Shown one piece after another: positions 32,275-50,860 of a DNA stretch of 64,000 nt; the first letter of the stretch is position 1, and the number at the start of each line of letters is the position of its first letter. This DNA is from an uncultured Chloroflexia bacterium. GTDB taxonomy: Bacteria > Chloroflexota > Anaerolineae > JAAYZQ01. The translations under genes and the position numbers were made by a program. The notes beneath the pieces were generated by a model, which was not told the DNA's origin, ran no database searches, and was given only the letters and a program-made list of their open reading frames with translations. The stretch is taken from contig CAVOXA010000010.1 of NCBI GenBank assembly GCA_963700285.1, forward strand, positions 320,001 to 384,000. The letters run 5' to 3'.

Positions 32275-33282
32275 TCAAGCCACTACCTCGGCCTTGTCGG
32301 CGTCGAACAGGATGTAGGCATAGTTGCCCGGGTAATTCCACGATGGTACAGCCACAGCGGCGATCAACAACGTCCGCTCGAAAGGCGCTTCGAAGGTCTG
32401 GCGCTCCGTCAAGTCGTACATGTTCAGCAGCCTGCCGAGCACAGGCACCCCTGATACCGGCTGTCCATCGAACACCGTCCGGGGAGTAATGGCTGGATCG
32501 GGAATGATCAGGCCGCCCTCCCGCGGTTTGACAATGTGTGCGTTGTGTTGGTGGCCGCTGTCGCCCCGGACCACGACTTGCCTGGGCGGCGGTTGTACCT
32601 CGCCCGGCAACATGCCCAGGTAACGCATGACGTTGAACACACCACGCACCCCTCTTTCTACCCACTCGTTGTAAAGCTGTCCCTGGCCGCCACAGAGGGC
32701 GACGATGACCTTGGCCCCCAGGCGTTCCGACTGGCGCCACATCTGTCCGGGCCGCCACTCGTCAAAGAGCAAGATGGGCATGTTGAAGGCGCGGGCCATG
32801 CCGGTGGAAACCGGATCTTTGGTGAATTCGACCATGTGAACGGAATGGTGGTCGGCCCCGTCGTGGAGGTCGATCTGATAGTCCAGATGAGACAGAAACT
32901 CGCTGGTCAGCACGTCGGCGATCTGTTCGGTAATGGTTTTTACCGGCTGGGTATACTTGCTTTTTCCCGGCTCAAAGAACACGGCATTGGCGTTCTGGCC
33001 GTCGCCTGGTGTCTCGCGCGACATCTGGCCAGCCCCCAGGGGGTTGCAGACGGGCACAGCCATGATGGTACCCGACAATTCCTCGGGGTCCACCAACTCA
33101 AGCACCCTGCGGATGATGCTCACCGGCGACGTCACTTCGTCCCCGTGTATGGCTCCACTCAAGCCCAGGGTCGGGCCGGGCTTGGCGCCCTTGACCACGT
33201 GCAGGGGCAGGCGGAAATCCGAGCCGGTGGGCATCGTCGTTACCGGCAGCCAGGTGAAAGTCGATTTCAGTTTCAAGTCCAT
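32275..33282 (-). CDS. Succinylglutamate desuccinylase/aspartoacylase (M14, AstE/AspA) family protein, copy B, catalytic Glu replaced by Leu
   Basis: GAIHGDE, VPVCNP, IDLHDG, IVALCGG. Confidence 0.88.
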   Translation of the reverse strand: MDLKLKSTFTWLPVTTMPTGSDFRLPLHVVKGAKPGPTLGLSGAIHGDEVTSPVSIIRRVLELVDPEELSGTIMAVPVCNPLGAGQMSRETPGDGQNANAVFFEPGKSKYTQPVKTITEQIADVLTSEFLSHLDYQIDLHDGADHHSVHMVEFTKDPVSTGMARAFNMPILLFDEWRPGQMWRQSERLGAKVIVALCGGQGQLYNEWVERGVRGVFNVMRYLGMLPGEVQPPPRQVVVRGDSGHQHNAHIVKPREGGLIIPDPAITPRTVFDGQPVSGVPVLGRLLNMYDLTERQTFEAPFERTLLIAAVAVPSWNYPGNYAYILFDADKAEVVA

Positions 33283-33319
33283 AGTTCCCCCCACAGGCAC
33301 AAGCTACAGGCCGCGCCCG

Positions 33320-34326
33320 TCAGTCCAGTACCTCCACGTCCGGGCCGTCGGCATCGAACAGGATGTAGGCATAGGTGCCAGGGTAGGACCACGCCGGTCC
33401 AACCACCGCGGCAATGAGAAGCGTACGATCGAAAGGCGCCTCGAATTCCTGCCGCACCGTCAGGTCGTACATGTTGAGCAGTTCGCCCAGGACAGGCACT
33501 CCGGTCACCGGCTGGCCATCAAAGACCGTCTGTGGCGTGATGGCCGGATGCGGAACAATCAACCCCCCCTCGCACGGTTTCAGGATGTTCGCGTTGTGCT
33601 CGTGACCGCTGTCGCCCCGTACCATGTACTGCCTGGGCGGCGCTTCCACCTCGCCCGGCAGCATGTCGAGATAGCGCATCACATTGATAGTGCCTCGCGC
33701 GCTCCGCTCCACCCACTCATTGTAGAGCGCTCCACCGCCGCCACACTCGGCGACGATGACCCTGGCCCCCAAACGCTCGGACTCGCGCCACATTTGACCC
33801 GGCCGCCACTCGTCAAAGAGCAGGATGGGCATGTTGAAAGCCCGGGCCATGCCCTTGGAGATGGGATCCTTGTTGAACTCGATCATGTGGACGGAATGGT
33901 TGTCGCCGCCGCTGTGAAAGTCGATCTGGAAATCAAGATTGGCCAGAACCTCGGCAGCCAGCACATCGGCAATCTGCTCGCTCACCGTCTTGACCGGCTG
34001 CGTGTACTTGGTCTGGCCTGGCTCGAAAAAGACCGCATTGACGTTCTGGCCATCACCCGGCGTCTCACGCGATAGTTGGCCAACGCCCAGGGGATTGCAG
34101 ACAGGCACAGCCATCACCGTACCTGACAGTTCCGCCGGATCCAGCAACTCGAGTACCCTACGGATGGCACCTATGGAAGGCGTGACCTCGTTTCCATGTA
34201 TCGCACCGGTCAGGCCCAGCGTCGGACCCGGCCGCACGCCCTTGACCACGTGCAAAGGCAGGCGCAGGTCAGAGCCATCGGGCATTGTCGTCACTGGCAA
34301 CCACTGGAACTCGATTTCACACTCAT
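33320..34326 (-). CDS. AstE/AspA (M14) family protein, copy A; probable 1-bp indel just after the true start
   Basis: GAIHGNE, VPVCNP, IDFHSG, IVAECGG. ATG at 34326 follows GGAGGA and aligns with the copy B start if one base is restored. Confidence 0.88.
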
Positions 34327-34480
34327 TGCTTTTCCTCCACCTAACCAAGTGGCAAGACCGATCCCGTGTTCTGTGAACCGTCTGTTCGGGTTGTCGATCC
34401 AGCCACCATGGCGCAATAGGCCCAGATCTGGGCGTTACTCACCTCACGGAAGGGGCCTCTGGATGGGTCCCAATGGCAGT

Positions 34481-35295
34481 TCATGGTACGTGATCGCCGC
34501 GCGTGTCACGGTGGGGTCCCCGAATGTTGTATTTCCCGGCGCCGTACCCCCCATCCACCGCAACGTACTGACCGGTGACGAACTCGGCCTGATCCGAGGC
34601 GATAAATAGCACCATGTTCGCTATGTCCTCGGGGCGTGCAAGTCGCCCCAGCGGCATGGCCGTCAGGTGGTTTGCCACATACTCAGGCGTGGCCCCTCCA
34701 TGGCGAGAGACTTCGGAAACATCGGTCAGACCGGGGCTGACACAGTTCACAGTGATCCCATGCTTGCCCAACTCCAGGGCCATCACCTTGGTCAGCATCA
34801 CGACAGCAGCCTTGGAGGCACAGTGCGGCGCTGCCTGGATCCGGGCATTGGCAGCAGCTCCAGAGCCGATGTTGATGATCCGGCCACCGTCCCCCTGCTT
34901 GACCAACTGGCGAGCCGCAGCGCGGGAGCACAGGAAGGCACCCTTCAACTGAACGTCCACCTGATAGTCCCAATCCTCCTCCGTGAGATCCACCACCTCT
35001 TTGTGGACCCCGACGCCAGCATTGTTGACGAAAACATCTAGACGCCCAAAGTTCTCCAACACGGCTGCCATCATGGCGTCCACCTGGTCAGCCTTGGAGA
35101 CATCTGTCGTGCAAACCAGCACCTCCCCCCCTCGTTCCGCAGATTGTCTGCGACCATACCGGCCCATTCCTGGTCGACATCTGCGATGACTCCTTTTGCG
35201 CCTTCCCGCACAAAGGCAGTGATGATGGCCCGGCCAATACCCGAGGCCGCGCCTGTGACCACGACGACCTTGTCCTCAAAACGCCCGTTATTCAT
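34481..35295 (-). CDS. SDR family oxidoreductase, HxxxK variant, tandem copy B; frameshift in a G run near 35130
   Basis: ORFs 35071..35295 and 34481..35167 join. The run is G7 here and G8 in copy A. TGAASGIG, NNAG, APHCASK. Confidence 0.9.
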
Positions 35296-35399
35296 ATTGC
35301 CCCTCCTGATTCGACCTGCAATCTTGGTTCTACCCAGCGCCGCTCGTGGAACGGGCGCTCTGCCGGCCAGATTCCAGCGGCGGGAGCAACCAGGTCCCG

Positions 35400-36203
35400 C
35401 TAATAGCGATCGCTTTGGTGAGGTCCCCGAATAGAGAGCTTACCTGCACTATAACCCCCATCCACCGTGATATGCTGGCCGGTAACGAACTCGGCCTGAT
35501 CCGAGGCGACAAAGAGCACCATATTCGCTATCTCCCTGGGATCGCCCAGGCGACCCAAGGGCACGCTGCTCAAGAACGCCTCGATGTACTCGGGCGAGGC
35601 TCCTCCATGGCGAGAGACTTCTGAAACATCGGTCAGACCGGGGCTGACACAGTTCACAGTGATCCCATGCTTGCCCAACTCCAAGGCCATCACCTTGGTC
35701 AGCATCACGACACCGGCCTTGGATGCACAGTGCGGCGCCGCCTGGATCCGGGCATTGCTAGTTGCAGTGGAGCCGATGTTGATGATCCGGCCACCACCCC
35801 CCTGCTTGACCAACTGGCGAGCCGCAGCGCGGGAGCACAGGAAGGCACCCTTCAACTGAACGTCCACCTGATAGTCCCAATCTTCCTCCGTGAGATCCAC
35901 CACCTCTTTGTGGACCCCGACGCCAGCGTTGTTGACGAAAACATCTAGACGCCCAAAGTTCTCCAACACGGCTGCCATCATGGCGTCCACCTGGTCAGCC
36001 TTGGAGACATCTGTCGTGCAAACCAGCACCTCCCCCCCCTCGTTCCGCAGATTGTCTGCGACCATACCGGCCCATTCCTGGTCGACATCTGCGATGACTC
36101 CTTTTGCGCCTTCCCGCACAAAGGCAGTGATGATGGCCCGGCCAATACCCGAGGCCGCGCCTGTGACCACGACAATTTTGTCCTCAAAACGCCTGTTGTT
36201 CAT
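35400..36203 (-). CDS. SDR family oxidoreductase, HxxxK variant, tandem copy A
   Basis: TGAASGIG, NNAG, NIGS, APHCASK, VSPG, VDGG. Confidence 0.92.
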   Translation of the reverse strand: MNNRRFEDKIVVVTGAASGIGRAIITAFVREGAKGVIADVDQEWAGMVADNLRNEGGEVLVCTTDVSKADQVDAMMAAVLENFGRLDVFVNNAGVGVHKEVVDLTEEDWDYQVDVQLKGAFLCSRAAARQLVKQGGGGRIINIGSTATSNARIQAAPHCASKAGVVMLTKVMALELGKHGITVNCVSPGLTDVSEVSRHGGASPEYIEAFLSSVPLGRLGDPREIANMVLFVASDQAEFVTGQHITVDGGYSAGKLSIRGPHQSDRY

Positions 36204-37366
36204 TTGCCCCCTCCTAGTTTGAACTGCAATGGTAATTCGACCCAACGCCGCTCATGGAACGAAAGCTCCACAGCGTTAACCACTTCCTGCACCCAAGCCC
36301 CATCCTCAAAATTTCCCTGATTCCGCTCGCCACCGTCCAGGATCTCGTCGATAAAGTCCTTGATCAGGTTGGCATAGAACAGGGAGCGCCACGACTCGCG
36401 TGGGTGCCCACCCACCGGATAGAACCGCTGCGGGATCTCTAGCTCGCGGAACTCGACATCGTCCGGCGTGGCGACCTTGATCGTCTCTGCCAAGCCAAAT
36501 TCCTCTACGAGGCGGCAGATGACGGCTCCTTCTTGGCCAAAGATGCGGGCCTCGATGCCAGGGTAGTTGCCGACGGTCACCAGGCTCGTCTGTATGGAGC
36601 CAATAGCGCCGTTGGTGTACTCGCCGATAAAGATATCCCCATCATCCATGTTGATCTGCGTCATGCGACCGGTGTCCCGCACCATGCGTTCGGGGACAAA
36701 GTTGTGCAGGGTGCCCACGACGCGGGCATAATCGGCGCCCACCCACCAGTGGCCGATGTCGATAATGGGCGAGCCATAGCCCTCCAGGGAGCGGGTCTGG
36801 ATGGCCGACGGATCCGCCGGGCGGCCCAGAAGCCAATCGGGAGGCGTCCGCGGCATCTGTCGCAGTGGGACCTGGGGATCCAGCCATTGCGAGTTCTGCT
36901 CGTAGCCATTGAAGATGAAAGGTCTGCCCACAAAGCCCTCGTCGATGAGGGACTTGGCATAGAGCACGCCAGGGCTGTAGCGGAAGGTGAAGCCGAGCTT
37001 GGTCTTGAGGCCCTGGCTCCTGGCCAGTTCCGCAGCCCGCAGCGTATCGCGATAGTCGTAGGCCACCGGCTTCTCACACAGGATGTGCTTGCCCGCCTCC
37101 AGCGCTGCCCAGGCGAGTTCAAAGTGAGCCGATGATGCGGTGGCGACATCGATCACATCGATATCGGGCCGCGAAACGACGGCCTGCCAGTCACCGGTCG
37201 CGTCGGGAATGTCAAACTGCCGGGCAAAGTCCCTGGCTCGCTCCGCCACCACATCGCAGATAACCACGACCTCGCAGCGGGGATCTCGCAGCCAGCCGGG
37301 GATATGGGCCATCTCAGCCCACCTGCCCGCACCAAGTACGCCAACCCGGAGCTTTTCCCTAGTCAT
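36200..37366 (-). CDS. Gfo/Idh/MocA family oxidoreductase with atypical active-site segment
   Basis: GVLGAGRWA, GKHILCEKP, GFTFRYSP, SLEGYGSPIID. Start MTREKLRV. Confidence 0.9.
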   Translation of the reverse strand: MTREKLRVGVLGAGRWAEMAHIPGWLRDPRCEVVVICDVVAERARDFARQFDIPDATGDWQAVVSRPDIDVIDVATASSAHFELAWAALEAGKHILCEKPVAYDYRDTLRAAELARSQGLKTKLGFTFRYSPGVLYAKSLIDEGFVGRPFIFNGYEQNSQWLDPQVPLRQMPRTPPDWLLGRPADPSAIQTRSLEGYGSPIIDIGHWWVGADYARVVGTLHNFVPERMVRDTGRMTQINMDDGDIFIGEYTNGAIGSIQTSLVTVGNYPGIEARIFGQEGAVICRLVEEFGLAETIKVATPDDVEFRELEIPQRFYPVGGHPRESWRSLFYANLIKDFIDEILDGGERNQGNFEDGAWVQEVVNAVELSFHERRWVELPLQFKLGGGK

Positions 37367-38603
37367 GCAGATTTTCCTCCCCAACCACAAACTCGCCATC
37401 CAACAGTACAGCGCGGATATTCCCTGGCTTGCGCAACAGCGACACATTGGCCGTGGCATCGCCATTCACTGCTACCAGATCAGCCTTGAACCCTGGGGCC
37501 AATCGTCCTACCGTATCCTGCATGCCCAGGCAGGCGGCAGCCATAGAGGTACCCGCCCGGAGAGCTTCCAGGGATGAAAGACCTGCGTCGACCAGGTATT
37601 CAAGTTCCCTGGCATTCTCGCCGCGGACCCAATCGCCGATGTCGGTGCCCAGGCAGATCCGAACGCCCAGCTCCCTGGCCCGTTCCAGGCGTTCCGCCTG
37701 CAGGGACACGAGACTCCGCGCAGAGCGCAGGCGCGGTGGCTCATCATCCCCCGGGCCCGTGGTCGCGGTCTCTATTAGGTAGCGCTCGGCGCTCAGTGTA
37801 GGCACCAGGTAGACACCCTGCTCGGCCATGAAGGCCAGATCCTCATCGTCAAGGGGGCCCAGATGCTCGATGGAGCGGACCCCAGCCCTGAGCGCGTTCT
37901 TGAGCCCTGGGCCGCAGTAGGCGTGGGCGGCCGTGGGCAGACCGAATGCCTGTCCCTCTTCCACGATGGCTTGTACTTCGGCAAGCGAGAACTGCCTCTG
38001 AGCGTAGCTCCCCCGCACGGCACCCACAGCGCCAGTCGTCGCTACCTTGAGAAAGTCGGCGCCCGCACGGATGATCTCCCGGGCCTTGGCCCGTACGCCG
38101 TCCACCCCGTCAGCAACGCCGTCGGGGATGCCAGGCAGCCGGGGTACGTTCCGGCGCAGACCGCTGGCCGGGATAAAGCCATCGGCTAACCCCGCGGTCT
38201 GGGTGATGATCACCAGGCAGATCTGCAATCTCGGCCCCGAGATCAGGCCCGATTCCACCGACTGTTTGACCCCCAGATCCACGCCAGCACAGTCCCGCAC
38301 GGTGGTAAAGCCCCGTTCCAGCGTCAGCCGCAGGTTGAGCGCCGTCTCGAGCACGGTCCGGCTGATGGGAGTATAGGCATTCGTCGCCAAGTCGCCGCCG
38401 GGATAGGCCAGGTGGTCGTGGCAGTCAATCAGGCCAGGCATTAGCGTCGCGTCACCAAGCTCACGGACAGCCACGCCTACTGGCCGGCCCACTGTTTCCG
38501 CCGGACCGACGGCCTCGATCCTGTCGCCATCGATGAGCACCGCACCACCACGGAGCGAGCGATCACCATCGAACAACCTGTCGGCCGTAAATAAGCGATG
38601 CAT
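37359..38603 (-). CDS. Amidohydrolase family protein (Xaa-Pro dipeptidase-like subgroup)
   Basis: PGLIDCHDH, GFTTVRD, GADFLK, AAHA, SIEH, GTD, GRLAPGFKADL. Confidence 0.9.
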   Translation of the reverse strand: MHRLFTADRLFDGDRSLRGGAVLIDGDRIEAVGPAETVGRPVGVAVRELGDATLMPGLIDCHDHLAYPGGDLATNAYTPISRTVLETALNLRLTLERGFTTVRDCAGVDLGVKQSVESGLISGPRLQICLVIITQTAGLADGFIPASGLRRNVPRLPGIPDGVADGVDGVRAKAREIIRAGADFLKVATTGAVGAVRGSYAQRQFSLAEVQAIVEEGQAFGLPTAAHAYCGPGLKNALRAGVRSIEHLGPLDDEDLAFMAEQGVYLVPTLSAERYLIETATTGPGDDEPPRLRSARSLVSLQAERLERARELGVRICLGTDIGDWVRGENARELEYLVDAGLSSLEALRAGTSMAAACLGMQDTVGRLAPGFKADLVAVNGDATANVSLLRKPGNIRAVLLDGEFVVGEENLHD

Positions 38604-38604
38604 C

Positions 38605-39684
38605 CTACGGCAACTCCAAGCCCAGTTCCTGGCGGTACAGGTCCAACTCTTCCAGGTTCTCCCAGCCCATGGAGCGCTCGCCACGTTCTATCTCGTATAT
38701 CATTTCGACCAATCGTTGATTCAGGGGCACCGGCACTCCATACTCCAGGGCCTTGTCCACCACGGCGCCGGTCAGACCCGGTGTTTCGGACGGCCGGTGG
38801 CGGTAGACAATGTCCCACCATACACCACTGGCAGTCTTGACATAGTCGTGGGGATCCTGAACCTGATGGCGAGAGAGCCTGTCCAGGTAGTTATCCAGGT
38901 AGTCCAGGATACGCAGCGTATCCTCTGGCGTCCGGGGCTGATACATCTCGGGATCAAAGGAAGCGCTGGCCGGTAGGGAGACACCCGCCGCCCAGGCTAC
39001 ATCTAGAGCCTCACCGACCAGGATGATCCCCAGTCGCCGGTATCTATCGACGTCAAGAACTTGGTGTACGGAGGCGTCTACCAGGGCGGTGAGTGTGATC
39101 TGCGAAAAGTAGCACTGTTTGCCCCAGATCTCACCCACGATATTCCCCGAGACGTAGGTCGTCGTCAGATGCTTAAACCCACTTTCCAGCCATTGGATGC
39201 GGGGCGTGACTGCACCGTTCAGCTCGCCAATGTGGATGGGGCCCTCGTGCACAAACTCGATGTGGCCTGGCTCCACGAGCGCGCCGCCATAGTTGGGAAC
39301 CGTACCGACAATCTGAGAGGCGTCCACAAAGGCCTGAAGGACCTCGACGTTGAAGCCGTTCTGCAAGCTCACGACGATGGTTTCAGACGTGAGGAGGGGC
39401 TGAATCGACCCCATCGCCTCTACGGTATGGTGGCTTTTGACGCCGAGAAACAGCACGTCCAGGGGCTCAGCGAGTTCCGTGGTCAGGCAGGCCTTCACGT
39501 CAAAGTGCTTCACCCCACGGACGCCATCGGTGTACAGTCCCCTGGTCCGCAGGGCTTCTACGTGCTCCCGCCAACTGTCCGTCAAGGTGACATCGTAGCC
39601 TGCGCCGGATAGATAGGTTCCGGCCAGGCCTCCGATGGCGCCTGCACCCACTATGACAATTCGATGCTTGTCCAGATCATTCAT
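38605..39684 (-). CDS. Ketopantoate reductase (PanE/ApbA) family protein, divergent
   Basis: GAGAIGG, GVKS, SLQNG, IGELNG, IWGK. Confidence 0.85.
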   Translation of the reverse strand: MNDLDKHRIVIVGAGAIGGLAGTYLSGAGYDVTLTDSWREHVEALRTRGLYTDGVRGVKHFDVKACLTTELAEPLDVLFLGVKSHHTVEAMGSIQPLLTSETIVVSLQNGFNVEVLQAFVDASQIVGTVPNYGGALVEPGHIEFVHEGPIHIGELNGAVTPRIQWLESGFKHLTTTYVSGNIVGEIWGKQCYFSQITLTALVDASVHQVLDVDRYRRLGIILVGEALDVAWAAGVSLPASASFDPEMYQPRTPEDTLRILDYLDNYLDRLSRHQVQDPHDYVKTASGVWWDIVYRHRPSETPGLTGAVVDKALEYGVPVPLNQRLVEMIYEIERGERSMGWENLEELDLYRQELGLELP

Positions 39685-39714
39685 GACTTTGTCTCCAACT
39701 GTACGGGGGAGCCA

Positions 39715-41115
39715 CTATCGGGGAGCAGCCCCTTCTGGCAGGGGCGACACATAGGCTTTGCCGCCCGTTTTGCGCTGAAACTCGTCCTGGGCTGCTTTGA
39801 CAATATCCGGCTTGACCTCGAGATCGAAGGCCGCCAGGGCCATGGCCTTTGCCGCCAGCATCATGCCTTTGTAGCCAATGCTCGATCCCGAAGTGACAAC
39901 GTTCTGCCAGCTATGTCCTGGCGTCCCAAGCGCCTGGCAACAGGTTGTGAGTTCCATCGTTGGCGTGATATGGCTCACATCGCCTACGTCGGTCGAGCCC
40001 CCCATTACCTTGCCCAGGCCGCCAGGTTCAGTGATGACCTCACAGAGGGGATCCCCCATCTCTTCCCTGGTCATCTCAAAACGCTTCAATGCCTTCTCTA
40101 TCGACCCAGGTGGGAAGGTAGCCTGCAGTTTCCTGGCCAGATCTTTTTCCTCATCCGTGAACTTTGGGGGGCCTGCCACCTTGAGTTTCTCCACCAAGAG
40201 TTCACCGAGCACCTCGTTGGGCAGCGTATTGTAGCATCCGGTCAGGAACTCGATATCGTAGGTTGTACCGGTCATGAGGGCAGCGCCCTTGGCTATGTCG
40301 AGCATCCAGGCATAGATAAAGTCGACCTGGTCCCGATTGGGGGCGCGGACATAGTACCACACCTGGGCATAGGGTGGGACGACGTTGGGCGCCTGCCCCC
40401 CCTCGGTTATCACACAGTGGACACGGGCGTCTTGAATGATATGCTCGCGCATATAGTTGACGCCCACATCCATCAACTGGACGCCATCCAGAGCACTGCG
40501 GCCTGCCTCTGGTGTGCCCCCAGCATGAGCAGCGATCCCATGGAAATTGACCTTGAAGGAGTTCAGAGCACTGGCCGACGTATACCTTGCAGAATTCACA
40601 TAGCTGGGATGCCAGGTGATGGCTGCATCCAGATCGTCAAAGACACCGGCCCTGGCCATAAAGACCTTGCCTACGAGTGTCTCTTCGGCGGGACAGCCAT
40701 AGTACCTGATAGTACCCTGGATCCCACCATCTTCCATAGCGTCTTTGACGGCCAATGCTGCTCCCACCCCCGCCATGCCCAATAAGTTGTGACCGCAGCC
40801 ATGACCTGGCCCCCCTTCTACTATCGGGGCCTGGGTGGCAGATACCTTTTGGGAAAGACTTGGCAGCGCATCATACTCGCCCAGGATGCCGATAATGGGC
40901 TGGCCCTGGCCCCAGCTCGCTACAAATGCCGTCGGTAACTGGTCGACGCCCTGGCTGATCTGAAAGCCCGCTGCTGCAAGCCGGTCAGCCTGCAGCTTGG
41001 CCGCATAGGATTCCTGCTGCCCCAGCTCAGGATGCTCCCAAATATCCTGCGCCATTGCTACAAGCTCGTTCTCCGCCATATCCAAAAAGCCCAGGATCTT
41101 TTTTTCTGCATTCAT
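39715..41115 (-). CDS. M20D amidohydrolase, p-aminobenzoyl-glutamate hydrolase subunit B-like
   Basis: IWEHPELG, GEYDALP, GHGCGHNLLG, GCPAEE, WHP, GRSALD, GSTDVGDVS, PGHSWQ. Confidence 0.92.
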   Translation of the reverse strand: MNAEKKILGFLDMAENELVAMAQDIWEHPELGQQESYAAKLQADRLAAAGFQISQGVDQLPTAFVASWGQGQPIIGILGEYDALPSLSQKVSATQAPIVEGGPGHGCGHNLLGMAGVGAALAVKDAMEDGGIQGTIRYYGCPAEETLVGKVFMARAGVFDDLDAAITWHPSYVNSARYTSASALNSFKVNFHGIAAHAGGTPEAGRSALDGVQLMDVGVNYMREHIIQDARVHCVITEGGQAPNVVPPYAQVWYYVRAPNRDQVDFIYAWMLDIAKGAALMTGTTYDIEFLTGCYNTLPNEVLGELLVEKLKVAGPPKFTDEEKDLARKLQATFPPGSIEKALKRFEMTREEMGDPLCEVITEPGGLGKVMGGSTDVGDVSHITPTMELTTCCQALGTPGHSWQNVVTSGSSIGYKGMMLAAKAMALAAFDLEVKPDIVKAAQDEFQRKTGGKAYVSPLPEGAAPR

Positions 41116-41137
41116 TGCTCCACCTCCACCAGTGATT

Positions 41138-42886
41138 CTATTCTGCGAAAGACTCGGCTTGCCTGGCAGCCTCCGCTCGCTGCCAGGGCGCTACCGGAAC
41201 CGCGGCATTGTGCTCCGGGGCGACCAAGATTTCGATGAGGGTAGGACTGCCATGCCGCAATGCATCCCTCAGAGCAGGGCCGATCTCCTCGGGGTCACGA
41301 ACCTGTTGGGAACGCAGGCCGAAACCCCTGGCTACGTCCGTGTAGCTCATATCCTCGTTAAAATCTACCGAATAGTAGCGGCCACCGTGGTACAGCTCCT
41401 GAAGGGCCTTTATCCAGCCGTAGCAGCCATTGTTGAACAGGATCAAAATCGTGGGCCCACCGACCCGGCCAACGGTCGCCAGGTCGCCGGCGGACATGGC
41501 AAAAGAACCATCGCCACACAATCCGACCACGAGCTGGTCGGGCCTGGCCAGGCGGGCGCCCACCACGCCGGGGATGGCGTAGCCCAGGCCGCCCTGGGCC
41601 CGAGGGATGACCACCCTCCGGCCCGGCTGGCTCAGTTCCAATTCGCCGGCGACAAAGGGCGTTGGCGTGCCAGGATCGCAAACCAGGACAGTCTCATCCG
41701 AGAGGATGCCCTCCAATTCACCCATGACGCGCCGAGGCATGATCGGCACCTGCGAACTCTTGGCCAACTTTCTGGTCTGAGACCGCCACGCCGCCTTCCG
41801 CGCCGCGATCTGCTCCAGCCACTTGCCCCGATCTGGGGGCGAGCCACCGCTCTCCTGCAGCGCCTGCAGCAGGTCAGCCAGGGTCATCTTCGCATCACCG
41901 CACAAACCCTCGTCGACCGGATAGTTGTTCCCGATCTCGGCAGGATCAACGTCGATCTGTACGATAGCAGGCGGTTCCGCCAGGGATGGGTATCGCCAGC
42001 TATCGGTATCCACATAGTTAACCTTGGAGCCCACAAAGAGTACGAGATCTGCTTCTCCAAGAACCTGGGCCGCGTAGGGCCGGCCTGCATTGGCCCCGAC
42101 CGTGCCGAGGCTCAGCACGTGTGTTTCGGCGACGGCTCCCTTGCCGCTGATGGTGGTGGCCACCGGGGCTCGCAGGAAATCAGAGACACCGCGCAACTCA
42201 TCAAAGGCACCCGACGATACCGCTCCTCCGCCGGCCACGATGACGGGGCGCTCGGCAGCCAGTAGCCTGCGAATTGCCCGGCTGACGGAGTCGGCGGCGG
42301 GACGGGTTCGATAGGCGGGCCACGACTTGCAGGCTGGCTCCCCAACCAATCGGGGCGCTGCGGTGGTATCTCCAGACAGCACATCCTTGGGCAGGCTCAG
42401 ATGCACGGCGCCGGGACGGCCGCTGGTTGCCAAGCGGAACGCGCGCCGGAGGAACCTGGGGACCATGTCCGGATGTTTGACCACCGCCGTCCACTTGGTG
42501 ACCGAACGATAGATCTGGGGCTGGTCGAGGTCAGTGAGCGCGCCTTGCACCTCGTAGCTCAGGGGGTTGTCGGTAGTCAGGGCAATCAGTGCCACCGACG
42601 AGCCATGGGCTTCCACGACCCCCGGCAGCATGTAGGTCGCGCCGCCGCCGCTGGGACCCTCACAGACGCCGGGCTTGCCGCTAAGACGGGCATAGGCGTC
42701 GGCCATGAAGGCGGCAGAGCGTTCGTCGCGGGCCATGAGGTGGGTAATGCGTGGTGAACGGCCATTCGCCTGAGACTGGGCATAAAAAGCGTCGTACAAG
42801 TCCACAGTGGTGTCCCCAGGCAGGCCAAAGACCACCTCTGTGTCATACTGAAGCAGCGTTTCTACCAAGGCTTGTGCGCCGTTCAT
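41138..42886 (-). CDS. ThDP-binding protein (acetolactate synthase large subunit-like)
   Basis: VFGLPG, RDERSAAFMADAYAR, GRPGAVHL, GDGSF...NN ThDP motif. Confidence 0.92.
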   Translation of the reverse strand: MNGAQALVETLLQYDTEVVFGLPGDTTVDLYDAFYAQSQANGRSPRITHLMARDERSAAFMADAYARLSGKPGVCEGPSGGGATYMLPGVVEAHGSSVALIALTTDNPLSYEVQGALTDLDQPQIYRSVTKWTAVVKHPDMVPRFLRRAFRLATSGRPGAVHLSLPKDVLSGDTTAAPRLVGEPACKSWPAYRTRPAADSVSRAIRRLLAAERPVIVAGGGAVSSGAFDELRGVSDFLRAPVATTISGKGAVAETHVLSLGTVGANAGRPYAAQVLGEADLVLFVGSKVNYVDTDSWRYPSLAEPPAIVQIDVDPAEIGNNYPVDEGLCGDAKMTLADLLQALQESGGSPPDRGKWLEQIAARKAAWRSQTRKLAKSSQVPIMPRRVMGELEGILSDETVLVCDPGTPTPFVAGELELSQPGRRVVIPRAQGGLGYAIPGVVGARLARPDQLVVGLCGDGSFAMSAGDLATVGRVGGPTILILFNNGCYGWIKALQELYHGGRYYSVDFNEDMSYTDVARGFGLRSQQVRDPEEIGPALRDALRHGSPTLIEILVAPEHNAAVPVAPWQRAEAARQAESFAE

Positions 42887-42900
42887 GCTATCCCTTTCTA

Positions 42901-44148
42901 CTATCGCGAATCCTTGATGACCTCTCCGTCTTTCATGATCAACCGCAGCCGCGAACGATCCTGGAGCAGGGTTACGTCCTGGAGCGGATCGCCATCAACG
43001 GCCAGCAGGTCAGCCAGCATGCCTTCTCGCAATACGCCTACCTCAGGGCCCAGCCCCATACACTGGGCGCCCATGCTGGTGGTCGCCACGATGGCCTGCA
43101 TGGGCGTCATGCCCGCTTCTACGAGGTAGGCCAATTCGGAAGCATTCTGACCGTGGCCAAAACCTCCGGCATCGGTGCCCATGGCCATTTTTACGCCGGC
43201 GGCCAGTGCATTCTGGAAACTCACGACCTGCTGGTCCAGCAGAGTCCGCGCCTTGCGGGGGATGTACTCCGGGATGGGACAGGGCTCCTGCTTACCTATC
43301 TCGACGATCTTGCGAAGTACGGTGAAGGTCGGGACCAGCCAGGTCCCCTGGCACACCATCCTCTCGATCAGATCGTCGTCCAGCGCCGCGCCATGCTCGA
43401 TACAGTCCACGCCCGCTTCCAGGCAGATGGCCACACCCTCGCCGCCATAGGCGTGGCTCATAACCGGCTTGCCCGCCGCGTGGGCGGCGTCCACGATGGC
43501 CTGTACCTCTTCCAGGGAGAACTGGCGGATGAGCGGGCCGCCCGTGGGGGTACCCACGCCGCCAGTGGTGCAGATCTTGATCCAGTCGGCGCCGGCGCGT
43601 ATCATCTCCCGCGTCTTTTGCCGGCAGCCGTCCGGCCCATCGCAGATACCACTGGGGACGCCGGGCAGGCGTGGGAAATCGGAATCGATGCCGGCCGGCT
43701 CGGTGTGATCGTTGTGGCCGCCAAACTGCGACAACAGGTTGACGCTTATCTTGAGGCGCGGCCCGGGGATAAGACCCTGCTCCACGGCCAGCTTCATGCC
43801 CAGGTCGACGCCGCCGGCGTCCCGGATGGCGGTAAAGCCGCCGAGCAAGGTATCGCGGAAAGTCCTGGCCGTCCTCAGGACCGCCAGGCTGGGTGGAATG
43901 GCTGCCCGGGCCACCATGCCGCCTTCCTGAACGGCCAGGTGATCGTGGCAGTCAATCATACCCGGCATCAGCGTCATGCCATGCAGATCGATCGGGCTTC
44001 CGCCCTCGGGGCAGGACAATTGAGACTGGGGCGCGAGGGCCTCGATCCGCTGACCAGAGACCACCATAGCATACGGCTCGTCGGGGACAGCACCCCCGGC
44101 GCCGTCGAGCAACCGGGCATTGCAGAGATATTTGGGTTTGTCGCTCAC
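42901..44148 (-). CDS. Amidohydrolase family protein (paralogue of 37359..38603)
   Basis: PGMIDCHDH, RDAGGVDLG, GADWIK, SHA, IEHG, GTDAG. Confidence 0.92.
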   Translation of the reverse strand: MSDKPKYLCNARLLDGAGGAVPDEPYAMVVSGQRIEALAPQSQLSCPEGGSPIDLHGMTLMPGMIDCHDHLAVQEGGMVARAAIPPSLAVLRTARTFRDTLLGGFTAIRDAGGVDLGMKLAVEQGLIPGPRLKISVNLLSQFGGHNDHTEPAGIDSDFPRLPGVPSGICDGPDGCRQKTREMIRAGADWIKICTTGGVGTPTGGPLIRQFSLEEVQAIVDAAHAAGKPVMSHAYGGEGVAICLEAGVDCIEHGAALDDDLIERMVCQGTWLVPTFTVLRKIVEIGKQEPCPIPEYIPRKARTLLDQQVVSFQNALAAGVKMAMGTDAGGFGHGQNASELAYLVEAGMTPMQAIVATTSMGAQCMGLGPEVGVLREGMLADLLAVDGDPLQDVTLLQDRSRLRLIMKDGEVIKDSR

Positions 44149-44178
44149 CGACCGTCCTCCATCACAGATCCCTCAAGC

Positions 44179-44985
44179 TCAATGACCATCCAGCATGGTA
44201 AAGTCATGCACGCCCTGGAAGGAGTAATGGCCCGCCATCAGGCCGCCATCGACCAGGTAAAGCTGGCCCGTGATCCAATCGGCGTCAGCCGACGAGAGAA
44301 AAAGAACCGCCTTTGCTATGTCTGAAGGCTGGCCCATGCGACCCAGTGGGACCTCCTCCAGATAGCGGGTTTGATAGGCCTGAGACAGGTTCTCTTCGTC
44401 GCGCTGGGCTGGCACATCGATCAGTCCCGGAGCCACGGCATTGACGTTGATCTGGTACTGGGCCAGCTCCATGGCCAGCACCTTGGTCAGCAGCGTCAGC
44501 CCGGCCTTGGCCGTGCAGTGGGGGCCGCCTTTGATGCGCCCCATGACAGCCGAAACCGACGAGATGTTGACGATCTTACCTCCGCCGCCCCGGTCGATCA
44601 TGTGCCGGGCTACGTGCTTGGATGTCAGGAAGGGACCGGTTAGCTGCACCGCCAGTTGCCGATCCCAATCGGACCGGTCCAGGTCCACCAGCAGTTTGTG
44701 GACGACAATGCCGGCATTGTTGACGAGGATGTCGATCCGGCCTAGCTGATCCAGGACCTGTTGAACCATGGTCTCGACCCGGGGCTCATCGGCCACGTCG
44801 GTCGGCACGGAGATGGCCCGGCCACCGGCTGCGGCGATCTCGGCGACAGCCCGCGCCCCAGATGCCTCATTGATGTCTGCTACCACCACTCGGGCGCCCT
44901 CGGCAGCATAGGCATGGGCCATGGCCAAACCGATGCCGTTGCCCGCCCCAGTGACGATGGTTACCTTGTCCTCAAAGCGTTTCAT
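44179..44985 (-). CDS. SDR family oxidoreductase, HxxxK variant
   Basis: TGAGNGIG, NNAG, NISS, GPHCTAK, VAPG, VDGG. Confidence 0.92.
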   Translation of the reverse strand: MKRFEDKVTIVTGAGNGIGLAMAHAYAAEGARVVVADINEASGARAVAEIAAAGGRAISVPTDVADEPRVETMVQQVLDQLGRIDILVNNAGIVVHKLLVDLDRSDWDRQLAVQLTGPFLTSKHVARHMIDRGGGGKIVNISSVSAVMGRIKGGPHCTAKAGLTLLTKVLAMELAQYQINVNAVAPGLIDVPAQRDEENLSQAYQTRYLEEVPLGRMGQPSDIAKAVLFLSSADADWITGQLYLVDGGLMAGHYSFQGVHDFTMLDGH

Positions 44986-46164
44986 TCTCCCATACCTCCC
45001 AGATCCACGTCGCCTTCCAGGGGCAGGCCCACCCAGCGCCGTTCCCGGTGAGACAAGGTCACGGCGTTGATGATCTCCTGCACCCGTGCACTCTGGGTGA
45101 AATTCCCCTGGTTGGTGTCGCCGCCATCCACGATCTCTTGCATAAAGTTGTGCACCAGCCCGACGTAAAAAGCCGAAGGCCAGGGCTCGCCGTCCTGATA
45201 TTCGGGCGGGAAGAAACGCTCGGGGATCTCTATCGGCACGAACTCCACGGCGTCCGGCTTGGCGCCGTGAAGGGTCTGAATAACGCCAAACTCCTCCACC
45301 AGGCGGGCGATCAGCGCGCCCTCAGAGCCATAGATGCGGGCCTCGATCCCGGGATAGTTGCCCACGGTCACAAAACTGCTCTGCATGGAGTAGAGCGCGC
45401 CGTTGGCGCACTCGCCGATAAACATGTCAGCGTCGTCGACGTTGATCCGCTCCCGCTCGGTGTCCAGATTGGTCCGCCGGCGGTAGGGAACCATATTGGC
45501 CAGGATGCCGACCACCTGGGTCAGATCGCTGCCCACCAGCTCCAGGCCAATGTCGATGGTCGGCGCGCCATAGCCTTCCAGCGACGAGACGTGGATCCCC
45601 TCCCGCGTCAGGTCGGTGCCCCACAGTTGCTCTTCGACCGGCTTGGTCCTGTGGATCCGCTTGTCCATGGGGTTGTCGGGATCCAGCCACTGGGAATTCT
45701 GCTCGTAGCCGTTAAAGACAAAGGGCTCACCGATGAAACCCTGGCGCACCAGTTCGAACATGTACTGCACGGCCGGTGCATAGCGAAAGGTGAGTCCTAC
45801 TTTGGTCTTTAACCCCTTGGAGTCGGCCAGCCGCTGGGCGCGCAACACGTCGCGGTAGTCGTGGCACACCGGTTTTTCGACCAGGCAGTGTTTGCCCGCC
45901 TCCAGGGTGGCAAAGACCAGATCCTGGTGATCGCCACGGGTCACGACGTCGACCACATCGATGTCGCTCGCGCTGAAGGATCTTTTCATAGTCGGTGACC
46001 ACCTCGGGGATGCCGAACTCCTCGGCCCTGGCCTCGGCCAGATCCCGATGGAGGTCACAGATCATGACGATTTCACTGAGCGGTGAACGGGTGAATCCCG
46101 GCAGGTGGGCAGAAGCCGACCAGCGACCGGCGCCAATAACGCCTACACGAAGTTTTTCTGTCAT
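44982..46164 (-). CDS. Gfo/Idh/MocA family oxidoreductase (paralogue of 36200..37366); frameshift near 45980
   Basis: ORFs 45727..46167 and 44982..46058 join. GAGRWS, VEKP, FNGYEQNSQWLDP, SLEGYGAPTID. Confidence 0.9.
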
Positions 46165-46239
46165 CACTTTCTCCTTTTCTCCAAATCCACACCGGCTGTC
46201 TGCCGGCAGTGTCCCTGGGATCGTACTCGCTTCTGGCTC

Positions 46240-47058
46240 TCAACCTCTATTGCGACCCGTCACCCAATCGTAACGGACGTCGTCGTCAACTATGGGTCCG
46301 CTGAAGCGAGTCCCTACCGACGCCGCCCCGTCGACGCTGATGACGGAACCGTTGATATAGCTGGACGCATCGGAGGCCAAAAAGAGGACTACGTCCACCA
46401 CCTCCTCCGGCTCGCCCGGCCTGGCCAAGGGCAGGGTGGGGATGCGGGCCTCCAGTTTTTCCTTCATATCAGGCGGCAGGGGCTTGGGCTGGGTGTCGAT
46501 CAGCCCCGGGCTGACGGTGTTGACCAGGATGTTGTGCGGCGCAAGCTCGATGGCCGCGACGCGAGAAAAACTCTCGGTCGCTGCCCGGCTGGAGGCATAG
46601 GCGGCCCCACCGGCTGAGCCACGTTTGCTGGCGGCTGAGGAAAAGTTGATGATCCGGCCCCCACGTCCGGCGGCGATCATGGCCCGGGCCGCCGCTTGCG
46701 TCAGCAGGAAGGTGCCGCGACAATTGACAGCGTAAACCGTGTCCCAGACCTCAACCCGCTCCTCCAGAAGCGCCGTGTGGGGCGCGACAGCGGCATTGTT
46801 CACGCAGATATCCAGGCGCCCAAAGCGCGCCATGGCTGCGTCGACGATCTCGCCGGCCCCTGCGGTTGTACTGACATCAGCCACCACTGCCACCACACCG
46901 GCGGCATACGGTGCACAGGTCTCGGCCAGGCCGATTGCGTCGCGGTCGGCCGCTACCACCTGTACCCCAACCTGCACAAAACCCGCCACCAGTGCCCGGC
47001 CGACACCACGTGCGGCGCCGGTCACAACTGCTACTTTACCCTCAAGACCAAAGTCCAT
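46240..47058 (-). CDS. SDR family oxidoreductase, YxxxR variant
   Basis: TGAARGVG, NNAA, NFSS, AYASSR, VSPG. Confidence 0.9.
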   Translation of the reverse strand: MDFGLEGKVAVVTGAARGVGRALVAGFVQVGVQVVAADRDAIGLAETCAPYAAGVVAVVADVSTTAGAGEIVDAAMARFGRLDICVNNAAVAPHTALLEERVEVWDTVYAVNCRGTFLLTQAAARAMIAAGRGGRIINFSSAASKRGSAGGAAYASSRAATESFSRVAAIELAPHNILVNTVSPGLIDTQPKPLPPDMKEKLEARIPTLPLARPGEPEEVVDVVLFLASDASSYINGSVISVDGAASVGTRFSGPIVDDDVRYDWVTGRNRG

Positions 47059-47084
47059 TTCTCCAACCCCCACCAGCATCCTCT

Positions 47085-48755
47085 TTAGAAGAGAACACCA
47101 TCATCGGCTGTCCCCAGCATATCCTGACGGATCAATTTTAGAGGAATCAAGCCGTAGGTCATAAAGCGGTCGTGGAACTCTTTTAGGTTGAACTCGCTGC
47201 CGAGCAAGGTCTCATAGTCAGCGCGGATCTTGCGCACCATCTCGCAGCCAATGTGATAGGTCAGGTGTGTGGGATAGTACACGGCGCGATCCAGCAATCC
47301 ATAGGCGCTGGCGCTCATGATACCCGCCTTGGCCTCCATCCACTCGGCCGCCTGGGATAGGGTCCGGACCTGCAGGTGGATCTCCATACCGATAATGGCC
47401 CGCACGATGTAGGCGCGCTTGGACACAAGCGCGCCAAAGCGGTATAGCGGGTCCTGTTCGCCATACACCTCGTCGATCATCATATACTTGCCATATTCAG
47501 CCCAGCCGTCCGAGTTGGAGTCAGAGTCGTGATCCTTGCTGGCCCGCATGGGTACGCGCTGTTCCAGGTGAAACTGGGTATGGTGACCCGGATAGGCCTC
47601 ATGCAGGAAGAGAAGCACCGTAGAATAAGTGTTAAAGTTCCGCAACTGGGACTGAAGCTGCTCAGCGGACCAATCAGACTGAGGCAGGTGCACCATCAGG
47701 TACGATTCCTTGGCCACCGTCTCGAACGGGCCAGGGGTGAGCATCATGCCCCCGCCACTGGCATAGCTGGGCATGGGGCTGACGATCACATCGGGCATCT
47801 CTGGCGGCAGCGTCAACAGGTCGCGGTCAGTGAGGTAGCCGCGCATGCGGGCCAGTTCGCGTCGCATCATCGGCATCAGATCATCGGCTTTTGGGTGGCG
47901 TCCCAACATCCGCTCGCGCAGATCGTCTGGCGTGGCAGCCGGGTCGATCTCGCGTGCCAGTTCATCGATCCGCCGTTCGACCTCCTCCAGGTGGCCATAG
48001 CAGCGCGCCAGAATCTCGGCCACTGGCACGTCGATCATCTCTTCGGCGTCCAGGATGGCCTGGATGCCTGCTTCGCCCACGGCAAAGCTGCCATGCGAGC
48101 GGGGCAGCAGATCTTCCTGCAGGTAGGCTAGAAAGCCCTCCAGTTCCTCCACCACGCAGTCGTTGGCCTCGCGGAAAGCGTTCACCAGGCTGCTATCCTG
48201 GACACGGTCAAACTGGCGGGGCAAGTTTCGAAAGAAATCAATGGCTCCCGGCATCAAGCGAATGGCTTGTTCGGTGTATTCGTAGGGTGGGTTGGTGAGA
48301 TTCGCCCACGCTGCCTGCAACACCTGGGGTACATGCCGCTCGCGTGAGATCACCAACTTGAGGCGCTCCTCCAGCGGCGCGAAGCTGCGGCTGACCAGGT
48401 TGAACACGCCTTCGACGATGGTATCCTTGTAAAAGAGGGGGTTGTTCTCCCAAAAGCGCCAGGTCTCGATCCAATAGATCTCGCGCTTCAGGCGTGTGCT
48501 CAGCACCAGATGGTCGATGGCATGCCAGTAGCCCATCCCCGCCGGGTCGATCCGGGCTACCTCTGCTTGGATGGCCTTCATGCGCCGCAGGGTTTCCTCT
48601 ACTTCATCGCGGCGATAGTGCCCCAGGTGATCATCGTACTGGTGCAGCCCCTGCCGCGTGGCATGCGGCGGGTGATAGGTGTAATAGACGTCGAAAAAAT
48701 CTTTGCTGAGCCGGTCGTATCGCGCTTCTACACTGCTCCGCGCATCCTGAGCCAT
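47085..48755 (-). CDS. DUF885 family zincin-like protein
   Basis: ATRQGLHQYDD, HEAYPGHH, DGWAEY, YHIG, FNLKEFHD, YGLIP. No signal peptide. Confidence 0.88.
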   Translation of the reverse strand: MAQDARSSVEARYDRLSKDFFDVYYTYHPPHATRQGLHQYDDHLGHYRRDEVEETLRRMKAIQAEVARIDPAGMGYWHAIDHLVLSTRLKREIYWIETWRFWENNPLFYKDTIVEGVFNLVSRSFAPLEERLKLVISRERHVPQVLQAAWANLTNPPYEYTEQAIRLMPGAIDFFRNLPRQFDRVQDSSLVNAFREANDCVVEELEGFLAYLQEDLLPRSHGSFAVGEAGIQAILDAEEMIDVPVAEILARCYGHLEEVERRIDELAREIDPAATPDDLRERMLGRHPKADDLMPMMRRELARMRGYLTDRDLLTLPPEMPDVIVSPMPSYASGGGMMLTPGPFETVAKESYLMVHLPQSDWSAEQLQSQLRNFNTYSTVLLFLHEAYPGHHTQFHLEQRVPMRASKDHDSDSNSDGWAEYGKYMMIDEVYGEQDPLYRFGALVSKRAYIVRAIIGMEIHLQVRTLSQAAEWMEAKAGIMSASAYGLLDRAVYYPTHLTYHIGCEMVRKIRADYETLLGSEFNLKEFHDRFMTYGLIPLKLIRQDMLGTADDGVLF

Positions 48756-50655: not shown

Positions 50656-50690
50656 TGAGTACCTTCCACCATGAGTTAGCTTCTGGAATT

Positions 50691-50714
50691 GGCAGCTATG
50701 GAAAGCCGCCCTAC
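50691..50714 (-). repeat. GTAG-type REP-like element GTAGGGCGGCTTTCCATAGCTGCC
   Basis: GTAG tetranucleotide directly followed by a 7-bp stem with one G-T wobble. A second hairpin lies next to it at 50721-50742. Confidence 0.5.
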
Positions 50715-50800
50715 GGACTCCCCTACCAGGTTCCTGGCAGGGTGGGTATCCCTACCCGTATCTTTTCAAAGCTCAGCGCCTGTACTGCGGAATATCGCCA

Positions 50801-50834
50801 GGTTGGGCTGGAGACCTGAATCCCCAGCCCAACC
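50801..50834 (-). terminator. Hairpin downstream of the third solute-binding-protein gene
   Basis: 11-bp stem GGTTGGGCTGG/CCAGCCCAACC. No clear U tract, so mRNA stabilisation is as likely as termination. Confidence 0.5.
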
Positions 50835-50860
50835 CATACAGACTAGACAACCTCAGTCAG

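What the first reader, a model, noticed from the sequence alone, without database searches (positions are those of the whole stretch)
34481..44985. Three SDRs with His replacing the catalytic Tyr (HxxxK)
Seen: 34481..35295 and 35400..36203 read APHCASK and the more divergent 44179..44985 reads GPHCTAK, all with a CAC codon. TGxxxGIG, NNAG, the Ser and the Lys are intact. All three also share V(V/G)VHKxxVDL and VQLxGxFL. Established: Tyr of YxxxK is the general acid/base of classical SDRs. Inference: a distinct subfamily with non-standard chemistry, such as imine or C=C reduction or epimerisation.
Basis: partly seen in the sequence, partly recalled or inferred. Interest (0 to 1): 0.7.

Follow-up and report, generated by a model that had tools for sequence, protein, structure and literature searches.

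The report
Histidine-for-tyrosine dehydrogenase family in Chloroflexota
These three genes belong to a conserved, uncharacterised branch of short-chain dehydrogenases in Chloroflexota bacteria in which histidine and glutamine replace the textbook catalytic tyrosine and asparagine; they likely remain working NAD-dependent enzymes that help break down imported peptide-like compounds, and natural tyrosine-bearing relatives would allow a direct test of what the swap does.

Summary
Confirmed, with corrections. All three genes have His (CAC) at the catalytic Tyr position, with Ser and Lys intact. The tetrad Asn is also replaced, by Gln, giving Q-S-H-K. The first gene is frameshifted in this assembly (probably a long-read error) and is a tandem duplicate of the second, so there are two independent types.

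His is kept in 238 of 240 homologues, against 1 of 190 non-family SDRs. The model is a classical SDR with intact NAD-binding motifs. Invariant His96, Arg150 and Tyr204 match the pocket positions of gluconate 5-dehydrogenases. Tyr204 also occurs in a sister group that keeps N-S-Y-K, so it is probably not a relocated catalytic Tyr. One sub-lineage has reverted to Tyr.

The genes sit in catabolic operons with peptide ABC transporters, amidohydrolases, DUF885 and an odd Gfo/Idh/MocA protein. Best reading: active NAD-dependent oxidoreductases acting on a carboxylate-bearing substrate, with His as acid/base. Whether they act on C=O or C=N/C=C is unresolved. No characterised member was found. The scan had not noted this family; it noted Tyr-to-His in an unrelated GME-type SDR.

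The parts
34481..35295 (-). S1: His-type SDR (Q-S-H-K), tandem paralogue of S2 with its own substrate loops (G144/H208 type); frameshifted in this assembly
35125..35131 (-). 7-G run (8 in S2) that breaks the S1 frame; probably a long-read indel
   Evidence: orthologue in G659 in frame here; reads uninformative
34823..34825 (-). S1 His codon (CAC) at the catalytic Tyr position
35296..35353 (-). Remnant of the Gfo gene 3' end and ribosome-binding region, duplicated together with the SDR
   Evidence: blastn of S1 region against S2 region
35400..36203 (-). S2: intact His-type SDR, 267 aa (P0121); His158, codon at 35730-35732
44179..44985 (-). S3: intact His-type SDR, 268 aa (P0001); Q114, S143, H156 (44518-44520), K160; pocket H96, Q110, R150, Y204; NAD-type D37
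36200..37366 (-). Gfo/Idh/MocA protein ('GfoX') overlapping the S2 start; EGYGxPxID where levoglucosan dehydrogenase has GDIATHVID
44982..46167 (-). Second GfoX paralogue directly upstream of S3, split into two frames in this assembly
37359..38600 (-). Amidohydrolase (Xaa-Pro dipeptidase-like, below cut-off)
38605..39684 (-). Ketopantoate-reductase-like protein; frequent partner of His-SDRs in the other class sampled
39715..41115 (-). M20 amidohydrolase
41138..42886 (-). Thiamine-diphosphate enzyme (PRK06112-like, below cut-off)
42901..44148 (-). Amidohydrolase directly downstream of S3; same position in 9 of 15 related genome loci
46240..47079 (-). Another SDR of the cluster with YxxxR (Lys replaced by Arg)
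47085..48755 (-). DUF885 protein (another at 53879-55579; a DUF885-like ORF without Pfam hit at 52717-53910)
48773..52558 (-). Peptide/nickel-type (family 5) ABC transporter: binding protein and two permeases
32275..34348 (-). Two tandem AstE/AspA-family deacylases downstream of S1
27359..28195 (-). SDR0: Tyr-type SDR (YCTGK), near the His-SDR in 12 of 15 related genome loci

Best explanation
These genes encode classical-fold short-chain dehydrogenases with Gln-Ser-His-Lys in place of Asn-Ser-Tyr-Lys, and they are likely active NAD(H)-dependent oxidoreductases in which His156 would act as the general acid/base on a carboxylate-bearing metabolite released from imported peptides or amides. Shown: the substitutions, their conservation, the fold, the intact cofactor motifs and the operon context. 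Inferred: (a) NAD rather than NADP, from the acidic residue 37 (established SDR rule); (b) a carboxylate site formed by His96, Arg150 and Tyr204, from positional equivalence with gluconate 5-dehydrogenases; (c) hydride transfer to or from nicotinamide C4, with Ser143 holding the substrate, Lys160 the ribose, and His156 moving the proton, the longer Gln114 perhaps adjusting the relay to the shorter side chain; (d) different substrates for S1, S2 and S3. Given an active His enzyme, I put CHOH/C=O chemistry on a hydroxy, keto or sugar acid at about 55%, C-N/C=N or C=C chemistry at about 35%, and internal-redox epimerisation at about 10%.
For: Catalytic site: His 238/240, Gln114 240/240, Ser143 240/240, Lys160 240/240. 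Pocket: Arg150 240/240, Tyr204 239/240, His96 234/240. Cofactor site: Asp/Glu37 236/240, Asp63 238/240. In a second class, 25 of 28 ORFs scoring at least 270 bits carry the full signature; the other 3 are the N-S-Y-K sister group. AlphaFold pLDDT is 93 and Foldseek gives TM 0.90, rmsd 1.3 A to ketoreductase 8y83. Purifying selection: 61 synonymous against 14 non-synonymous codon differences in 269 codons, S3 against its L001 orthologue. Solved gluconate/hexonate dehydrogenases 5u9p, 4ibo and 4g81 have Arg at the His96 and Arg150 positions and Phe at the Tyr204 position. A Tyr156 sub-lineage nested in the S3 clade keeps Q114, H96, R150 and Y204 (P0053, P0091, and all 14 further listed cluster members that span the site), so the site behaves as an exchangeable acid/base. 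S1 and S2 are homogenised across the scaffold (3/299 and 9/299 differences within genomes against 37/299 and 34/299 between orthologues, nt 100-400) but differ in the lid and C-terminus (64/200 in both genomes against 18/200 and 25/200, nt 600-800), as expected of enzymes with separate substrates. Context in 15 genome loci: ABC permease 14, SDR0 12, GfoX 11, DUF885 11, adjacent amidohydrolase 9.
Against: No activity, substrate or ligand-bound structure exists. An engineered Y157H in the SDR mBFP abolished turnover while keeping NADPH binding (PMC10866763 section 9); I could not verify that Tyr157 is its YxxxK Tyr, and the review calls it a substrate-site residue. The carboxylate-binding role of the gluconate-dehydrogenase arginines is recalled; the paper was not held. 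The His-SDR is not an obligatory part of the cluster: 7 of 11 genomes with GfoX have no family member (87-97% complete), and 2 of 16 regions show no cluster neighbours.
Confidence: 0.65

Rival explanations
1. His156 only anchors the cofactor or substrate, and the proton comes from elsewhere: the lid Tyr204, His96, solvent or the substrate itself, as in SimC7.
For: Tyr204 (239/240) and His96 (234/240) are as conserved as His156. SimC7 works without any catalytic Tyr (PMC5039031 passages).
Against: Tyr204 is also present in the sister group that keeps N-S-Y-K, so it predates the loss of the Tyr. Family member P0323 has Q-S-H-K without it. It lies in lid helix 202-211, where gluconate dehydrogenases have Phe.
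Confidence: 0.15
2. The proteins are redox-inactive NAD(H) binders: sensors, or structural subunits of a heteromer with a Tyr-type SDR such as SDR0, like the inactive BbsC subunit of BbsCD (recalled).
For: mBFP Y157H binds NADPH without turnover. SDR0 lies near the His-SDR in 12 of 15 loci. BbsD (7pcs) is among the top PDB hits, though only at generic SDR level.
Against: The substrate-pocket residues are invariant, and distinct substrate loops are kept in the S1/S2 pair. None of the 16 His-SDR regions shows an SDR0 orthologue. A Tyr revertant lineage retains the rest of the site.
Confidence: 0.12
3. Two His-SDR types of opposite stereospecificity, or one enzyme with tightly bound NAD+, epimerise a chiral centre rather than carry out a net oxidation.
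For: S2-type and S3-type genes share an operon in 4 of 16 regions, adjacent in 3, and S2-type genes often come as pairs with different lids. A racemase-family gene is in the window.
Against: Fourteen of 15 genomes reached through S3 loci have at most one family match. There is no extended-SDR substrate domain as in sugar epimerases.
Confidence: 0.06
4. The His is a sequencing artefact or a neutral change in decaying genes.
For: The assembly has many indels, and S1 is frameshifted.
Against: His in 238/240 homologues from several sources, both His codons in use, and strong purifying selection.
Confidence: 0.01

Closest known systems
Classical SDRs: FabG, glucose 1-dehydrogenase-like (NCBIfam NF005559 PRK07231, passed at 234 and 240 bits, cut-off 215), ketoreductases 8y83 and 5x8h
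   Same: Fold (TM 0.9), TGxxxGxG, NNAG, Ser and Lys, length about 267 aa, about 40% identity
   Different: Tyr replaced by His and Asn by Gln. No hit above about 42% identity, and no family model with a named function is specific to them; the glucose-dehydrogenase label is a broad subfamily hit.
Gluconate 5-dehydrogenase / hexonate dehydrogenase (PDB 5u9p, 4ibo, 4g81)
   Same: Arg six residues before the catalytic site, a basic residue four after the NNAG glycine, and an aromatic residue nine before the lid proline
   Different: They keep N-S-Y-K and are about 35% identical. Here the first Arg is His96 and the Phe is Tyr204.
Uncharacterised sister SDRs with RxGAAHYCASK (P0322, P0336, P0344, L184, L269-L271)
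   Same: Arg150 and Tyr204; nearest group in the trees
   Different: They keep Asn and Tyr, lack His96 and Gln110, and have other neighbours (an amidase in 2 of 4 regions).
Isopiperitenone reductase IPR (Glu238 for Tyr) and menthone:neomenthol reductase (PMC4988501, passages read)
   Same: A natural substitution at the catalytic Tyr position; there it switches ketoreduction to C=C reduction
   Different: Glu rather than His, plant NADPH enzymes; a precedent for the logic only.
SimC7, triphenylmethane reductase, QOR2 (PMC5039031, passages read)
   Same: Active SDRs without the catalytic Tyr, with a His in the motif
   Different: Their His is at the Lys position (I/LxxxH), and the paper sets them apart from canonical SDRs. 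Here His is at the Tyr position and Lys is kept.
mBFP Y157H (PMC10866763, section 9 read)
   Same: Tyr-to-His in an SDR active site with cofactor binding kept
   Different: Engineered, redox-dead and without compensating changes. That Tyr157 is the YxxxK Tyr was not verified here.

Membership tests
Classical SDR | Rossmann fold, about 250 aa, no extended C-terminal domain | tested here: met
Classical SDR | TGxxxGxG cofactor motif and NNAG | tested here: met
   (G13 and G17 236/240; A91 240/240)
Classical SDR | Catalytic Ser and Lys | tested here: met
   S143 240/240, K160 240/240
Classical SDR | Catalytic Tyr of YxxxK | tested here: not met
   His in 238/240, Tyr in 2/240; motif definition in PMC3144213
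Classical SDR | Tetrad Asn in the helix before the Ser strand | tested here: not met
   Gln in 240/240
Classical SDR | NAD(P)-dependent carbonyl/alcohol oxidoreduction | not testable with these tools
   needs an assay
Gluconate 5-dehydrogenase | NCBIfam gluconate 5-dehydrogenase model above its cut-off | tested here: not met
   PRK07097 199 bits against cut-off 369 for S3
Gluconate 5-dehydrogenase | Basic pocket residues at the His96 and Arg150 positions | tested here: inconclusive
   Arg150 matches; Arg replaced by His at 96; their binding role is recalled
SimC7/TMR/QOR2-type SDRs | I/LxxxH motif with His at the Lys position | tested here: not met
   motif is HxxxK
Pteridine reductase (PTR1/FolM type) | Asp at the Ser position and Arg in the glycine-rich motif (recalled) | tested here: not met
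   S143 and a GIG-type motif in the family; two other HxxxK SDRs of the genome do show these features
Inactive SDR subunit (BbsC-like, recalled) | Degraded cofactor site and heteromer with an active SDR | tested here: inconclusive
   cofactor site intact; heteromer not tested

The most novel reading that the evidence does not exclude
The Q-S-H-K site is a natural mechanistic switch. The shorter, near-neutral-pKa His makes room for an N-substituent and turns a sugar-acid-dehydrogenase-like SDR into an NAD-dependent amine dehydrogenase / imine reductase. With a Gfo/Idh/MocA protein that also lacks its usual Asp/His pair, it would cleave C-N bonds in N-substituted amino acids or peptide conjugates, in an undescribed catabolic pathway of Chloroflexota.
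Probability: 0.22. Interest if true: 0.8.

Novelty: new variant of a known kind. Interest (0 to 1): 0.56.

Why it matters
The YxxxK tyrosine is the most conserved residue of the SDR superfamily, and one engineered Tyr-to-His change was reported to be redox-dead. A natural clade under purifying selection with His there comes with two built-in controls: a sister group with the canonical tetrad and a revertant sub-lineage with Tyr on the Gln background. That makes it directly testable whether His can serve as the SDR acid/base, what compensates for it, and whether it changes the chemistry. If the chemistry is C=N, it would be a new NAD-dependent imine-reductase scaffold. In any case the current labels (FabG, glucose 1-dehydrogenase) are unsupported, and the surrounding DUF885/GfoX/amidohydrolase cluster looks like an undescribed catabolic pathway of sediment and soil Chloroflexota.

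Tried and rejected
Literature. Ten searches found no paper on a natural classical SDR with HxxxK. The library holds open-access papers only, and no supplements were read. The papers on levoglucosan dehydrogenase and gluconate 5-dehydrogenase were not held, so the roles of their residues are recalled. PMC11612644 and PMC3793261 (passages) gave nothing on the point. My recollection that TMR and QOR2 have His at the Tyr position was wrong: it is at the Lys position.

Searches that gave little. Plasmids: no match at E 1e-55. The ESM Atlas gave generic SDR clusters only. The metagenome scan used generic patterns and returned mostly ordinary SDRs, which I used as background. Public contigs covered the S1/S2 region only in short pieces and missed the frameshift, so they say nothing on it or on habitat or expression. 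A search for an mBFP-like sequence among fetched proteins found none. No complex prediction was obtained, so heteromer formation is untested. The GfoX model was unreliable across its active-site region (pLDDT below 50 at 150-194) and confirmed only the fold.

Ideas rejected or unresolved. An obligate GfoX/His-SDR pair: rejected, since 7 of 11 GfoX genomes lack the SDR. His arising by deletion of Tyr from an 'HY' motif: rejected, since the Arg-to-site spacing is 6 in both groups. A single origin of Q-S-H-K: recovered at SH-aLRT 94 with the trait columns in; not recovered by FastTree or with five trait columns and two long rows removed, but not rejected (p-AU 0.52). The whole-class searches scored only 6 candidates per genome, so the counts are lower bounds.
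Full report
Observation. The three minus-strand genes are as described: S1 34481-35295, S2 35400-36203, S3 44179-44985, each with CAC His at the YxxxK Tyr position. Ungapped alignments to solved FabG and ketoreductase sequences put the His on their catalytic Tyr and Gln114 on their tetrad Asn, so the site is Gln-Ser-His-Lys. S1 is frameshifted at a 7-G run (35125-35131; 8 G in S2). The orthologue in same-genus genome G659 is in frame there and carries other single-base deletions, and several neighbouring genes are split, so an assembly error is likely; public contigs did not reach the site. S1 and S2 are also a tandem duplicate (88% identical; S3 is 44% to both) that includes a remnant of the upstream Gfo gene end.

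Is it more than chance? In the best 120 hits for S3 (of 4464) and for S2 (of 2334), His156 is kept in 238 of 240, Gln114, Ser143, Arg150 and Lys160 in 240, Tyr204 in 239 and His96 in 234. Four of these rows are encoded by the window itself. Relatives use both His codons, and S3 differs from its nearest orthologue by 61 synonymous and 14 non-synonymous codons. As background, 189 of 190 non-family SDR ORFs in fetched loci have Tyr, once five 'HY' alignment slips are corrected. The exception, L081, pairs His with Ser at the Asn site and falls in the sister group. In the own genome, 43 SDR ORFs could be scored: 36 Tyr, the three family genes, two pteridine-reductase-like proteins with an independent HxxxK, and two others. 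His at this site is therefore rare but not unique. Among 193 domains from the 150 best 50%-cluster representatives, 12 had His, nine in this family and three unrelated.

Range. Named relatives are Chloroflexota (Anaerolineae, Chloroflexia, Thermomicrobiales), plus one 2.5-kb contig in an alphaproteobacterial bin. In the window's class, 8 of 401 genomes matched and 4 were true members. In the class of G406, 35 of 401 matched; of 28 strong ORFs in 22 new loci from that search, 25 had the full signature and 3 were canonical sister proteins. These searches scored six candidates per genome, so the counts are lower bounds.

Structure and relatives. The model of S3 has pLDDT 93 and matches classical SDRs at TM 0.9 and 1.3 A. 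No PDB or NCBIfam hit is specific. Acidic residue 37 points to NAD (established rule). The nearest group keeps N-S-Y-K and shares Arg150 and Tyr204. Tyr204 sits in the lid helix, is older than the His, and is missing in one Q-S-H-K member (P0323), so it is probably not a relocated catalytic Tyr; distances could not be measured. Solved gluconate and hexonate dehydrogenases have Arg, Arg and Phe at the positions of His96, Arg150 and Tyr204, which suggests a carboxylate pocket; the role of those arginines is recalled, not read. Inside the S3 clade, P0053, P0091 and their cluster members have Tyr156 (with Gly153Leu) and keep the rest of the site. A single origin of Q-S-H-K is recovered with the trait columns (SH-aLRT 94) and is neither recovered nor rejected without them (p-AU 0.52).

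Context. The window holds a long minus-strand catabolic cluster: family-5 ABC transporters, DUF885 proteins, several amidohydrolases, M20 and AstE-like deacylases, a ketopantoate-reductase-like protein, a ThDP enzyme, aminotransferases and other SDRs. Of 15 genome loci around S3 orthologues, 14 have an ABC permease, 12 SDR0, 11 DUF885, 11 GfoX and 9 an amidohydrolase directly downstream; four of the 15 are short or cut contigs. Of 16 His-SDR regions from the other class, 10 have an amidohydrolase, 8 the ketopantoate-reductase-like gene, 8 ABC genes, 4 GfoX, 4 both SDR types, and 2 none of these. GfoX itself reads EGYGxPxID where levoglucosan dehydrogenase reads GDIATHVID; that this Asp/His pair is catalytic is recalled. 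GfoX occurs without the His-SDR in 7 of 11 genomes, so the SDR is an accessory step. S1 and S2 are homogenised over the scaffold but keep different substrate loops in two genomes, and the S1-type pair G144/H208 recurs in 17 of 120 homologues. That pattern fits selection for distinct substrates.

Mechanism. I favour (0.65) active NAD-dependent oxidoreductases with His156 as acid/base, acting on a carboxylate-bearing product of peptide or amide hydrolysis. The intact cofactor site, the invariant pocket, the His/Tyr exchange within the clade and the maintained substrate loops support this. The reaction type is open: about 55% CHOH/C=O, 35% C-N/C=N or C=C, 10% epimerisation. The Glu-for-Tyr switch of isopiperitenone reductase (PMC4988501, passages) shows that this position can set the chemistry. 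mBFP Y157H, redox-dead but NADPH-binding (PMC10866763, section 9; catalytic identity of Tyr157 not verified), shows that His need not replace Tyr without compensation. It supports both an altered chemistry and the non-catalytic rival. Rivals: proton from Tyr204, His96 or the substrate as in SimC7 (0.15; PMC5039031, passages); inactive binder or subunit (0.12); epimerising pair (0.06); artefact (0.01).

Novelty. The proteins have the classical SDR scaffold but fail the Tyr and Asn criteria (motif definitions in PMC3144213, passages). SDRs without the Tyr are known, but those read here use Glu, or His at the Lys position. Ten searches of open-access literature found no natural classical HxxxK family; subscription papers and supplements were not seen. 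The scan's index had nothing by sequence or place; by words it showed a Tyr-to-His change in an unrelated GME-type SDR (unchecked). Verdict: a new variant of a known kind, real and conserved, with unusually good natural controls but no demonstrated new chemistry. Interest 0.56.

Noticed in passing
window 36200-37366 and 44982-46167: Gfo/Idh/MocA family ('GfoX') with invariant QNSQ and LExYGxPxID; Gly and Pro stand where levoglucosan dehydrogenase has Asp and His. It forms a core module with DUF885 and a peptide ABC transporter in 11 of 401 genomes of the class, and may be as unusual as the SDRs.
   Followed up: partly
window 34481-36203 and L195:6740-8454: Concerted evolution of the tandem pair: scaffold nearly identical within each genome, substrate loops about 30% different and orthologous between genomes.
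   Followed up: yes
G000:C10:1413385-1414203 (L196:3479-4207) and G000:C10:1364264-1365079: Two pteridine-reductase-like SDRs with an independent HxxxK and Asp at the Ser position (for the first, PRK09135 at 211 bits, cut-off 288).
   Followed up: partly
window 46240-47079: SDR with YxxxR (Lys replaced by Arg), also seen in L001, L004 and L013.
   Followed up: no
window 27359-28195: SDR0 keeps S-Y-K but mostly lacks the tetrad Asn (SLGG or GLGG in most orthologues); it is the commonest enzyme neighbour of S3 orthologues.
   Followed up: partly
P0053, P0091 and cluster members P0450-P0466: Stable sub-lineage with Tyr156 and Leu153 on the Gln114 background: a natural H-to-Y control.
   Followed up: yes
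L081:1459-2418 (G122:C169): Apparently independent Tyr-to-His change in the sister group, with Ser at the Asn position.
   Followed up: partly
window 47085-48755, 52717-55579: Two DUF885 genes and a DUF885-like ORF without Pfam hit, up to four copies per related cluster; HExxPGH-like motifs suggest metallopeptidases (motif reading recalled).
   Followed up: no
window 17990-26000: Succinyl-CoA-synthetase-like subunits, 2-oxoacid:ferredoxin oxidoreductase subunits, an aminotransferase and an Asp/Glu racemase follow the cluster, consistent with amino-acid fermentation. All but the racemase (Pfam) were named by eye.
   Followed up: no
window 26300-32240 and 44982-46167: Many genes are split by single-base frameshifts, typical of an unpolished long-read assembly.
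   Followed up: partly
L277, L282, L292: A HAD-family hydrolase and GfoX accompany S2-type His-SDRs in three regions of the second class.
   Followed up: no
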